This document shows positions 3-1,186 of a stretch of DNA of 1,186 nt, piece after piece. Under the pieces are notes generated by a model. It saw nothing but the letters and a program-made list of their open reading frames with translations, was not told the origin of the DNA and did not search any database. A program made the translations under genes and the position numbers. Position 1 is the first letter of the stretch, and each line of letters starts with the position of its first letter. Source of the stretch: Naegleria gruberi (lineage: Eukaryota); the NCBI GenBank assembly GCA_000004985.1, contig GG739514.1; one strand, 5' to 3'.

Positions 3-1013
3 TACATTCATTTCTATGCATGTTTTGTGAGAGCTGTCAAACAATTCTACAGAGATTGGAGAAATTTGATATTTGAAATTCTCATTTCCTTTGTTGTTGG
101 TTTGCTTATTGGAGTATTATTTAATGGTCTTGAATTTATTGGAAGTGTTTCAAGTTCAAAATATAGCAAATGTCCAATAGAAATCAGAGCTGGTTGCATG
201 CTTCCTCAATCGGATACGATTGCTCCATACTCATCTTTCCTCGTTTTGGCCATTGCATTGATATCTATAATGAGAGGTTTGAGAGTTTTTGGATTTGAAA
301 TTGAGAATTTCAAAAGAGAATCTCATGTAGGTCTCAATTCTTGGATGTACTTTTTATCGAAGGATTTGATTTCAATTTTTGTGATTGCTGTCATTTCTTT
401 CAGTACTACATTTGGCATGTTATCTGCATTACCACATACTAACTTTTTCATTCTCTATGCCATTGTATTTCTAACAATTATGGCTGGTTTTCCAATTGGT
501 TATACATTGTCATTCTTCTTTGATCCACAAATAGCTCAATTGGCAGCTGCCTTAGTAGTTGTAGTATTTTACAGTTTTGGAGGAAATAATCCAACCATTC
601 CTGAAATTGAAAAGCTTTCTCCAGTTCTTGCCTACAGTCACGTTATCACCTATTTTAGATATATTAGAGGTTTAATTTATATGGAAGAACTTATTACAAG
701 AAGAGAAGATAACGACATTGCATCAGCTCTTAAGGTGAATGGATATGAAATTGAAGCAATTTCATTCTACTTTTATGCTCTCTTCTTTTGGATTGTAGTA
801 TTCAGGTATATGGCAGTATATTGTATGTGGGCTTGGAAACCACGTTCTCTGTTCAGTAAGATTAATTTCCTATCAAGGAGATTGAGGGCAGCAGCTTTAA
901 AAAAAATCATTCGAAAAATTTACAGAGGATTTTGTTGCATTGAGGATTTTAGTACTGTATCAAAGGCTAATCGGAAGGATGTCTGCAAATTTGAGGCAAG
1001 TGCAAAACGTTAG
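3..1013 (+). CDS. ABCG-family (White/PDR-like, ABC-2 type) ABC transporter, C-terminal transmembrane domain. The gene is 5'-partial, and the NBD would lie upstream of the window.
   Basis: The frame is open from the first in-frame codon of the window (..YIHFYACF-VRAVKQFYRDW..), with no upstream stop, so the GTG at 27 is not a real start. Six hydrophobic helices occur with ABCG spacing: TM1 LIFEILISFVVGLLIGVLF; a loop; FLVLAIALISIM; the ABCG signature 'RVFGFEIENFKRESHVGLNSWMYFLSKDL' (cf. ABCG 'ERElf.rE..sGlY....Yfl(s/a)K.l.dlP'); ISIFVIAVISFSTTFGM; FFILYAIVFLTIMAGFPIGY; LAAALVVVVFYSFGG ('fsGf' motif); the extracellular loop 'NNPTIPEIEKLSPVLAYSHVITYFRYIRGLIYMEEL' (cf. 'ip.wl.Wl.ylS...Y...al..NEf'); and TM6 FYFYALFFWIVVFRYMAVYCMWAW. 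Stop TAG is at 1011-1013. Confidence 0.85.
   Translation, partial: YIHFYACFVRAVKQFYRDWRNLIFEILISFVVGLLIGVLFNGLEFIGSVSSSKYSKCPIEIRAGCMLPQSDTIAPYSSFLVLAIALISIMRGLRVFGFEIENFKRESHVGLNSWMYFLSKDLISIFVIAVISFSTTFGMLSALPHTNFFILYAIVFLTIMAGFPIGYTLSFFFDPQIAQLAAALVVVVFYSFGGNNPTIPEIEKLSPVLAYSHVITYFRYIRGLIYMEELITRREDNDIASALKVNGYEIEAISFYFYALFFWIVVFRYMAVYCMWAWKPRSLFSKINFLSRRLRAAALKKIIRKIYRGFCCIEDFSTVSKANRKDVCKFEASAKR
288..368 (+). other. ABCG signature segment between TM2 and TM3 (E..F.RE...G.Y....Y.LSK), part of the ABC2_membrane domain.
   Basis: Translation FGFEIENFKRESHVGLNSWMYFLSKDL matches the conserved ABCG/White 'ERE(l)f.rE..sG.Y....Y.lsK.l' block. Confidence 0.7.
837..1010 (+). other. Atypical basic C-terminal cytosolic extension of the ABCG transporter after TM6 (KPRSLFSKINFLSRRLRAAALKKIIRKIYRGFCCIEDFSTVSKANRKDVCKFEASAKR).
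   Basis: Canonical ABCG proteins terminate within a few residues of TM6. Here ~58 further residues follow. They are rich in K/R (14 of 58 residues) and include a putative amphipathic stretch LRAAALKKIIRKIYRG and a CC pair. The last 35 nt overlap the next gene. Confidence 0.5.
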
Positions 1014-1186
1014 AGTTGTTGCTCGTTTTAGACCAATAACAACTAAGGAAAAACAAGAGAAAACTTCATACAAATTAACATACGATTTTGACGGAGACCA
1101 TACTGTTAAGGTATCAACTGATGATCAAGCCATTGGAAATAATTCCTTCATTCTTGATAAAGTATTTAAGAACGATACAAAACAGG
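979..1186 (+). CDS. Kinesin motor protein, N-terminal motor domain. Kinesin-1/KHC-like. 3'-partial, continuing beyond the window.
   Basis: The ATG at 979 is the first Met after an in-frame TAA at 898-900, with a purine at -3 (aggATGt). Translation is MSANLRQVQNVRVVARFRPITTKEKQEKTSYKLTYDFDGDHTVKVSTDDQAIGNNSFILDKVFKNDTKQ. 'NVRVVARFRP' is the kinesin motor β1 motif (cf. IKVVCRFRP / IKVVARFRP). 'SFILDKVFKNDTKQ' matches 'SFTFDRVF....Q..V(Y)'. Spacing and content resemble fungal/animal kinesin-1 N-termini (…KF.G.DTV.I..K.Y.FDRVF…). There is no in-frame stop to the window end. Confidence 0.85.
   Translation, partial: MSANLRQVQNVRVVARFRPITTKEKQEKTSYKLTYDFDGDHTVKVSTDDQAIGNNSFILDKVFKNDTKQ
1006..1035 (+). 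other. Kinesin motor β1 strand motif (NVRVVARFRP).
   Basis: Direct translation of frame 1. This is a conserved kinesin N-terminal motif preceding the P-loop, which would lie downstream of the window. Confidence 0.75.

What the first reader, a model, noticed from the sequence alone, without database searches (positions are those of the whole stretch)
979..1013. 35-nt out-of-frame overlap between the ABCG transporter stop and the kinesin start (same strand)
The transporter ORF runs to TAG at 1011-1013. The kinesin ATG lies at 979 in another frame, so the two co-oriented eukaryotic CDSs overlap. Any promoter/5'UTR of the kinesin must then lie inside the transporter's coding sequence. This is very unusual for eukaryotes and typical only of extremely compacted genomes, e.g. 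microsporidia, some apicomplexans and nucleomorphs. In microsporidia, ABCG half-transporters are also the dominant ABC family. Alternatively the transporter's true C-terminus may be upstream, or the kinesin's true start may be a downstream Met or an upstream spliced exon.
Basis: partly seen in the sequence, partly recalled or inferred. Interest (0 to 1): 0.6.

Follow-up and report, generated by a model that had tools for sequence, protein, structure and literature searches.

The report
Gene overlap from a suspect scaffold junction
The 35-base overlap between a transporter gene and a kinesin gene is really in the deposited sequence. It sits on a tiny orphan scaffold of the free-living amoeba Naegleria gruberi, and it exists only because the transporter reading frame runs across an abrupt junction into unrelated DNA, so it is not evidence of a compacted genome.

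Summary
A frame-3 ABC-2/ABCG-type membrane-domain ORF ends at TAG 1011-1013. A frame-1 ATG at 979 opens a kinesin motor N-terminus. The two overlap by 35 nt.

The interpretation does not hold. The window is a whole 1186-bp scaffold of Naegleria gruberi NEG-M (40.9 Mb genome), and GenBank protein XP_002667985.1 is window 199-1010. It is not from a microsporidian or a nucleomorph.

A 98.3%-identical environmental Naegleria contig (L002) is collinear with the window only up to base 885. It then continues into a different C-terminal tail. That tail is homologous to the N. fowleri orthologue's tail (score 48 against 16.6±3.3 for shuffles). The window's 42-codon tail (886-1010) is homologous to neither.

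The overlap is therefore a by-product of the transporter frame reading through a junction at 885/886 into the 93-nt 5' flank of the kinesin. The native downstream neighbour seen in L002 exists in NEG-M on a different small scaffold.

The junction is most likely a chimeric clone or assembly join (about 0.55). Otherwise it is a real, perhaps heterozygous, rearrangement in NEG-M (about 0.33). N. gruberi DNA and reads could not be reached, so I could not decide between the two. Interest is low.

The parts
3..885 (+). 3' part of an ABC-2 / ABCG-type transporter gene (membrane domain). This is the portion that is genuinely homologous to relatives.
   Evidence: Pfam PF19055 and PF01061 score above their gathering cut-offs. 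Window 196-885 is 98.3% identical in nucleotides to L002 1-691, with 8 synonymous and 3 conservative changes. Window 30-870 is about 70% identical to the N. fowleri locus L001.
756..836 (+). Last predicted transmembrane helix of the transporter (AISFYFYALFFWIVVFRYMAVYCMWAW). The junction lies 16 residues after it.
   Evidence: Kyte-Doolittle scan with a 19-residue window. The segment is invariant or nearly so in the alignment with P0001, P0002 and P0006.
885..886 (.). Homology breakpoint (junction). The window reads ...AAGGAGATTGA|GGGCAGCAGC and L002 reads ...AAGGAGATTGA|CTGGACGATTC.
   Evidence: The blastn alignment with L002 ends at window 885. Nothing from window 886-1186 matches L002 or L001, even with 7-base words. 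There is no GT in 876-890 that could be a splice donor.
886..1013 (+). Non-homologous extension of the transporter ORF: 42 codons (RAAALKKIIRKIYRGFCCIEDFSTVSKANRKDVCKFEASAKR) plus TAG. It is most likely non-coding kinesin 5' flank and kinesin codons read in the wrong frame.
   Evidence: The window tail scores 12 against the N. fowleri tail, where shuffles give 17.1±3.3. The L002 tail scores 48 against the N. fowleri tail, where shuffles give 16.6±3.3 and 0 of 5000 reach it. Alignment A1 shows the same. An open run of at least 42 codons occurs by chance in 3-6% of shuffles.
886..978 (+). 93 nt between the junction and the kinesin ATG, presumed to be the kinesin's 5' flank or 5' UTR. It holds an in-frame TAA at 898-900 and no ATG in the kinesin frame.
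   Evidence: Translation of frame 1.
979..1186 (+). First 69 codons of a kinesin-like motor protein, running off the scaffold end. Strand beta-1 (NVRVVARFRP) starts at residue 10.
   Evidence: Pfam Kinesin positions 1-55 and Microtub_bd match weakly. PDB alignments to KIFC3 and kinesin-1. BLASTP to P0009, which has a kinesin motor at residues 22-346. Metagenome kinesins match at 30-37% identity.
979..1013 (+). The reported 35-nt out-of-frame overlap.
   Evidence: Direct reading of the sequence.
199..1013 (+). GenBank/JGI gene model NAEGRDRAFT_77105 (EFC35241.1 / XP_002667985.1, 271 aa), which includes the non-homologous tail.
   Evidence: P0004 is identical to the translation of window 199-1010, and its only contig is 1186 bp long.

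Best explanation
The window is an orphan 1186-bp scaffold of the Naegleria gruberi NEG-M Sanger shotgun assembly. Two unrelated pieces of the genome are joined at base 885/886.

- Piece 1 is the 3' part of an ABC-2/ABCG-type transporter gene, cut 16 residues after its last transmembrane helix and about 40 codons before its native stop.
- Piece 2 is the 93-nt 5' flank plus the first 69 codons of a kinesin gene.

The transporter frame happens to stay open for 42 more codons across the junction. It stops 35 nt inside the kinesin ORF, and that creates the apparent overlap.

Shown: the junction, the missing native tail, and the identity of the organism. Inferred: the most likely origin of the junction is a chimeric insert or assembly join that could not be merged into the main assembly. 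Under that reading the overlap and the 42-residue tail of XP_002667985.1 are not biological.
For: (1) Source. P0004 (N. gruberi EFC35241.1) equals window 199-1010 and sits on a contig of exactly 1186 bp. The assembly has a contig N50 of 159,679 bp across 1977 contigs (PMC6125883), so this is a leftover scaffold.

(2) Abrupt junction. Identity to L002 is 98.3% up to base 885 and then there is no similarity at all. There is no microhomology and no splice donor.

(3) The L002 tail is the ancestral one. It is homologous to the N. fowleri tail (score 48 against 16.6±3.3, 0 of 5000 shuffles). The window tail is not (score 12).

(4) The native neighbour exists in NEG-M. The gene that converges on the transporter in L002 is found in NEG-M at 98% identity as P0011 (NAEGRDRAFT_76755), but on a different 7579-bp scaffold.

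(5) No independent copy. No other protein among 5.8 billion clusters carries the window tail, and no independent contig carries the junction.

(6) Local gene spacing. The N. fowleri locus has gaps of 196-727 nt, none negative, and no kinesin within 8 kb of the transporter.
Against: - The join is 'neat'. Both genes are on the same strand. The cut falls after the transporter's last helix and just upstream of the kinesin ATG. A random ligation chimera gives this only rarely, whereas a selected genomic deletion gives it readily.
- Neither the transporter membrane domain nor the kinesin N-terminus is annotated anywhere else in the NEG-M proteome. This fits one poorly assembled real region better than two independent loci.
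- No read-level or genome-level data for N. gruberi could be reached, so the artefact itself was not demonstrated.
Confidence: 0.55

Rival explanations
1. The junction is real in NEG-M. A deletion or rearrangement, possibly on one haplotype only, removed the transporter's native tail and the DNA between it and the kinesin. The transporter then acquired a new 42-residue read-through tail that overlaps the kinesin start. The 1186-bp and 7579-bp scaffolds would be the two alternative paths of a heterozygous structural variant.
For: - The geometry is neat and preserves function: same strand, cut 16 residues after the last helix, and 93 nt before the ATG.
- Both halves are unannotated elsewhere in NEG-M.
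- The native neighbour sits on another small scaffold, as expected if the assembler broke at a heterozygous indel.
- N. gruberi is reported to be heterozygous (PMC9928731).
- Window and L002 differ by genuine strain divergence, with 8 synonymous and 3 conservative changes. Structural differences between strains are therefore plausible.
Against: - No second sequence shows the junction.
- Only 93 nt would remain for the kinesin promoter and 5' UTR, against gaps of at least 259 nt between same-strand genes in the N. fowleri locus.
- Orphan scaffolds of about 1 kb are where chimeric reads end up.
Confidence: 0.33
2. One reading: a genuine, conserved overlap of two co-oriented genes caused by extreme genome compaction, with the kinesin promoter inside the transporter coding sequence.
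For: - The overlap is literally present.
- Naegleria genomes are gene dense: N. lovaniensis is 77% coding (PMC6125883).
- The two convergent stop codons in L002 lie only 51 nt apart.
Against: - The source is N. gruberi, with a 40.9 Mb genome.
- The overlapping transporter end is not conserved. The closest relative and N. fowleri both carry a different, mutually homologous tail and a different downstream neighbour.
Confidence: 0.03
3. Splicing hides the true structure. Either an intron starts near 885 and the native transporter tail lies further downstream, or the kinesin has upstream exons and 979 is not its start.
For: - Naegleria genes do have introns (47% of N. lovaniensis genes, median length 80 bp; PMC6125883).
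- A TTTTAG acceptor-like motif lies at 947-952.
- The best PDB hit is a C-terminal-motor kinesin, KIFC3.
Against: - There is no GT within 876-890.
- L002 and N. fowleri encode the tail contiguously.
- An intron would have to contain a whole kinesin gene, whereas the median intron is about 80 bp.
- The kinesin frame has a TAA at 898-900 and aligns from residue 6 with the N-terminus of an N-terminal-motor kinesin.
Confidence: 0.04
4. The environmental contig L002, not the window, is the chimeric or derived sequence, and the window shows the normal N. gruberi arrangement.
For: - L002 is a short MEGAHIT-style metagenome contig.
- It carries a frameshift in a T-run.
Against: - The L002 tail is significantly homologous to the N. 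fowleri tail.
- Its downstream gene exists in NEG-M at 98% identity.
- A chimera could not create homology to a distant orthologue.
Confidence: 0.03

Closest known systems
Chimeric clones and false joins on small leftover scaffolds of Sanger whole-genome shotgun assemblies
   Same: The scaffold is an orphan of about 1.2 kb. Collinearity with a near-identical relative is lost abruptly and bluntly, without microhomology. Two unrelated gene fragments abut. The resulting gene model carries a tail with no homologue.
   Different: This was not demonstrated at read level. The join is unusually tidy in strand and position. Neither half is annotated elsewhere in the assembly.
C-terminal tail replacement by a structural variant (deletion or fusion) with read-through into neighbouring sequence
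   Same: A conserved tail is swapped for an unrelated peptide that ends at the first chance stop codon. The membrane domain is left intact.
   Different: There is no population or second-assembly evidence that the variant exists.
Overlapping genes and transcripts in compacted eukaryotic genomes (Encephalitozoon and other microsporidia; PMC4355639, PMC2803860)
   Same: Co-oriented neighbouring ORFs with no intergenic spacer.
   Different: The organism is a free-living amoeba with a 40.9 Mb genome. The overlap is not conserved in relatives. One of the overlapping ends is not genuine coding sequence.

Membership tests
Compaction-driven gene overlap (microsporidia / nucleomorph type) | The source genome is extremely reduced, with very short or negative intergenic spacers as the norm. 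| tested here: not met
   The source is N. gruberi NEG-M, 40.9 Mb. The nine gaps in the N. fowleri locus are 196-727 nt.
Compaction-driven gene overlap (microsporidia / nucleomorph type) | Both overlapping ends are genuine coding sequence conserved in orthologues. | tested here: not met
   The transporter tail 886-1010 is not homologous to the L002 or N. fowleri tails. The kinesin N-terminus is plausible.
Compaction-driven gene overlap (microsporidia / nucleomorph type) | Overlapping transcripts are demonstrated. | not testable with these tools
   No RNA data for N. gruberi are available here.
ABCG-type (ABC-2 membrane domain) half-transporter | ABC-2 type membrane domain. | tested here: met
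   PF19055 scores 47.4 bits against a cut-off of 22.7, and PF01061 scores 39.4 against 26.9.
ABCG-type (ABC-2 membrane domain) half-transporter | The nucleotide-binding domain lies N-terminal to the membrane domain (reverse topology, IHQPS region). | tested here: inconclusive
   This part is not in the window. In the N. fowleri locus, Walker A, a Walker B-like motif and IHQPS precede the membrane domain, but the nucleotide-binding domain looks shortened.
ABCG-type (ABC-2 membrane domain) half-transporter | Sequence similarity to solved ABCG structures. | tested here: not met
   phmmer against the PDB returns only spurious TAL-effector repeat hits. A fold comparison was not attempted.
Kinesin motor protein (N-terminal motor) | Pfam kinesin motor domain above the gathering score. 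| tested here: inconclusive
   The score is 15.5 bits against a cut-off of 29.3. Only profile positions 1-55 of 327 lie in the window.
Kinesin motor protein (N-terminal motor) | The beta-1 motif (RVxxRxRP) and the F-x-[FL]-D-x-V-F motif lie at the right spacing, a few residues after the start Met. | tested here: met
   Alignments to KIFC3 and kinesin-1 and to P0009, with residue 6 opposite residue 12.
Kinesin motor protein (N-terminal motor) | P-loop GQTxxGKT and the switch motifs. | not testable with these tools
   These lie beyond the scaffold end.
Chimeric clone / misassembled scaffold | Abrupt loss of collinearity with a near-identical reference, inside a conserved gene. | tested here: met
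Chimeric clone / misassembled scaffold | The native continuation exists elsewhere in the same genome. | tested here: inconclusive
   The native neighbour gene P0011 is in NEG-M on another scaffold. Whether the native transporter tail lies next to it could not be read.
Chimeric clone / misassembled scaffold | The junction is supported by a single clone or read only. | not testable with these tools
   N. gruberi reads and scaffolds are not retrievable.

The most novel reading that the evidence does not exclude
The junction is a real, possibly heterozygous, structural variant of N. gruberi NEG-M. It gave an ABC-2 transporter a new 42-residue cytoplasmic tail. It also left a kinesin gene with only 93 nt of its own upstream sequence, so the kinesin's promoter and start codon now lie inside the transporter's coding and 3' region. 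That would be a recently born same-strand gene overlap in a non-compacted free-living eukaryote.
Probability: 0.33. Interest if true: 0.3.

Novelty: not a real feature. Interest (0 to 1): 0.12.

Why it matters
The main value is as a caution.

- The overlap is no evidence for genome compaction or for an unusual mode of gene expression.
- The C-terminal 42 residues of the public N. gruberi protein XP_002667985.1 (D2W6R1) are probably not part of the real transporter.
- If the junction proved physically real, it would be a small, tidy example of how a deletion creates a new protein tail and a same-strand gene overlap in one step. That would still be a one-off structural variant and not a new principle.

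Tried and rejected
- **Microsporidian or other compacted source:** rejected. The window is N. gruberi.
- **Alternative genetic code (ciliate-type TAG = Gln):** rejected. The 336-codon ORF has no in-frame TAA, TAG or TGA, and the source is Naegleria, which uses the standard code (own knowledge).
- **Intron at the junction:** rejected. There is no GT in 876-890, and relatives encode the tail contiguously.
- **Independent copies of the kinesin start or of the junction:**
  - The protein word-index search found no candidate.
  - HMMER over 1.84 billion representatives gave only 4 weak hits.
  - JGI metagenomes gave only generic kinesins at 30-37% identity.
  - Viral and prokaryotic genome collections gave none.
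- **Fetching N. gruberi DNA** through P0004, P0011 or the window ORF failed.
- **Synteny between L002's downstream gene and the N. fowleri locus:** no tblastx match.
- **PDB sequence search for ABCG relatives:** only spurious TALE-repeat hits.
- **Literature searches:**
  - The locus tag and accessions gave no hits.
  - The ENA project gave no hits.
  - Searches for Naegleria overlapping genes and for N. gruberi misassembly found nothing relevant.
  - The N. gruberi genome paper is not held.

Full report
**Observation.** The window carries a frame-3 ORF that is open from base 3 to TAG 1011-1013. It also carries a frame-1 ATG at 979.
- The frame-3 product matches the ABC-2 type membrane-domain families above their curated cut-offs. 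PF19055 scores 47.4 bits and PF01061 scores 39.4 bits.
- The frame-1 product (MSANLRQVQNVRVVARFRPITTKEK...FILDKVFKNDTKQ) matches the first 55 positions of the Pfam kinesin motor model. The match is weak, as expected for a 69-residue fragment.
- It aligns with strands beta-1 to beta-3 of KIFC3 and kinesin-1 structures.
- It also aligns with the N-terminus of an environmental N-terminal-motor kinesin, P0009, whose Pfam kinesin domain spans residues 22-346. Window residue 6 lies opposite P0009 residue 12 at 38% identity.
- In the kinesin frame there is a TAA at 898-900, no ATG between it and 979, and no Met downstream within the window.
- The 35-nt out-of-frame overlap (979-1013) is therefore literally present, and 979 is the only available start.

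**Source.** The closest protein cluster contains N. gruberi EFC35241.1 / XP_002667985.1 (NAEGRDRAFT_77105, 271 aa). Its sequence equals the translation of window 199-1010, and its only contig is 1186 bp long, which is exactly the window length.
- The window is thus a complete, tiny scaffold of the N. gruberi NEG-M Sanger assembly.
- That assembly is 40.9 Mb in 1977 contigs and 784 scaffolds, with a contig N50 of 159,679 bp and about 15,700 genes (PMC6125883).
- N. gruberi is a free-living heterolobosean, not a compacted parasite genome.

**The decisive comparison.** An environmental contig, L002 (ENA, 1403 bp), is 98.3% identical to window 196-885.
- It differs by 11 substitutions and one extra T on the L002 side. 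Eight substitutions are synonymous third-position changes and three are conservative. This is real strain divergence under purifying selection.
- Collinearity ends at base 885. The window continues GGGCAGCAGCTTTAAAAAAAATC... and L002 continues CTGGACGATTCTCTACC....
- Nothing from window 886-1186 matches L002 or the 16.8-kb N. fowleri locus L001, even with 7-base words.
- L002 encodes the tail TGRFSTWFSNKIIQPLRMKMKRNKYKEVDNSEVNPFKQ*. The N. fowleri orthologue (P0002/P0006) ends TGRMGVFLDRRVVTPVRAKMSSRRRH....
- These two tails are homologous: the local BLOSUM62 score is 48, shuffles give 16.6±3.3, and 0 of 5000 shuffles reach 48.
- The window tail RAAALKKIIRKIYRGFCCIEDFSTVSKANRKDVCKFEASAKR* scores 12 against N. 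fowleri and 15 against L002. Both values are below the shuffle means.
- The ancestral C-terminus is therefore the L002/N. fowleri one. The window lacks it, and the 42 codons after base 885 are not transporter sequence.
- The junction lies 16 residues after the last predicted transmembrane helix, which spans nt 756-836.

**What lies after the junction.** Bases 886-978 (93 nt) are best read as the 5' flank or 5' UTR of the kinesin.
- The transporter frame stays open through them and through the first 11 kinesin codons until a chance TAG.
- An open run of at least 42 codons is expected in 3-6% of shuffles. That is mildly unusual, but it is the reason the case was noticed.
- An intron cannot explain the break. 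There is no GT in 876-890, relatives encode the tail contiguously, and Naegleria introns are short, with a median of about 80 bp in N. lovaniensis.

**Context in relatives.**
- In L002 the transporter's native stop is followed after 51 nt by the stop of a convergent ankyrin-like gene.
- NEG-M has that gene at 98% identity as P0011 (NAEGRDRAFT_76755). It sits on a different 7579-bp scaffold.
- In N. fowleri the transporter is followed after about 650-730 nt by an Exo_endo_phos gene. There is no kinesin within 8 kb on either side, and all nine called gaps are positive, 196-727 nt.
- The transporter-kinesin adjacency is thus unique to this scaffold.

**Artefact or real rearrangement?** I could not decide this directly. 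No other collection holds the junction or the kinesin start.
- *For an artefact:*
  - The sequence is a leftover scaffold of about 1.2 kb.
  - The join is blunt and lacks microhomology, as in ligation chimeras.
  - The native neighbour is present elsewhere in NEG-M.
- *For a real junction, perhaps a heterozygous deletion:*
  - The geometry is tidy: same strand, cut after the last helix, and cut just before the ATG.
  - Neither half is annotated elsewhere in NEG-M.
  - The locus is evidently fragmented in the assembly.
- I put the artefact at about 0.55 and a real structural variant at about 0.33.
- Under either reading, the overlap is a by-product of read-through across a non-homologous junction. 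It is not a conserved feature of gene organisation.

**Verdict.**
- Observation: confirmed.
- Interest: low.
- Practical consequence: the public protein model XP_002667985.1 probably carries a spurious 42-residue tail and is a partial model on a suspect scaffold.

Noticed in passing
L002 about 85-98 (equivalent to window 280-285): The environmental contig has one extra T in a T-run relative to the window, which breaks the transporter frame. The called protein P0001 therefore starts at an internal Met. The window's frame agrees with N. fowleri (GLRVFGFEIE), so the error or mutation is on the L002 side.
   Followed up: partly
L002 805-861: The transporter's native stop (TAA 805-807) and the stop of a convergent ankyrin-like gene (859-861, minus strand) are only 51 nt apart. 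This is genuine tight packing, so the 3' UTRs probably overlap in an N. gruberi-like genome.
   Followed up: partly
L001 7155-8179 (N. fowleri): The orthologue's nucleotide-binding domain looks degenerate. Walker A (GQSGSGKST) and a Walker B-like motif (LVADEPTSGLDS) lie about 30 residues apart in one 84-aa ORF, with no ABC signature motif between them. The public gene models disagree (222 aa against 360 aa). About 177 extra nt between L001 8273 and 8487, relative to window 617-654, look like an intron.
   Followed up: no
window 558-653 (aa 186-217 of the ORF): A sequence search of the PDB returns only TAL-effector repeat proteins. VVVFYSFGGNNPTIPEIEKLSPVLAYSHVITY aligns with the 34-residue TALE repeat, and the score is summed over many repeats. 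I judge this spurious.
   Followed up: partly
window 3-198: The GenBank model XP_002667985.1 starts at Met 199, although the ORF is open and homologous to N. fowleri back to the scaffold's first codon. The model is a 5'-truncated partial gene.
   Followed up: yes
window 947-952 and 898-905: An acceptor-like TTTTAG lies 27 nt upstream of the kinesin ATG. An A8 run follows 12 nt after the junction. Neither has a demonstrated role.
   Followed up: no
window 979-1185: The kinesin N-terminus has no close relative anywhere. The best of 1.84 billion representatives is 38% identical, and no annotated N. gruberi or N. fowleri protein shares three 5-residue words with it. The rest of this kinesin gene is therefore either missing from the NEG-M annotation or modelled without its first exon.
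   Followed up: partly
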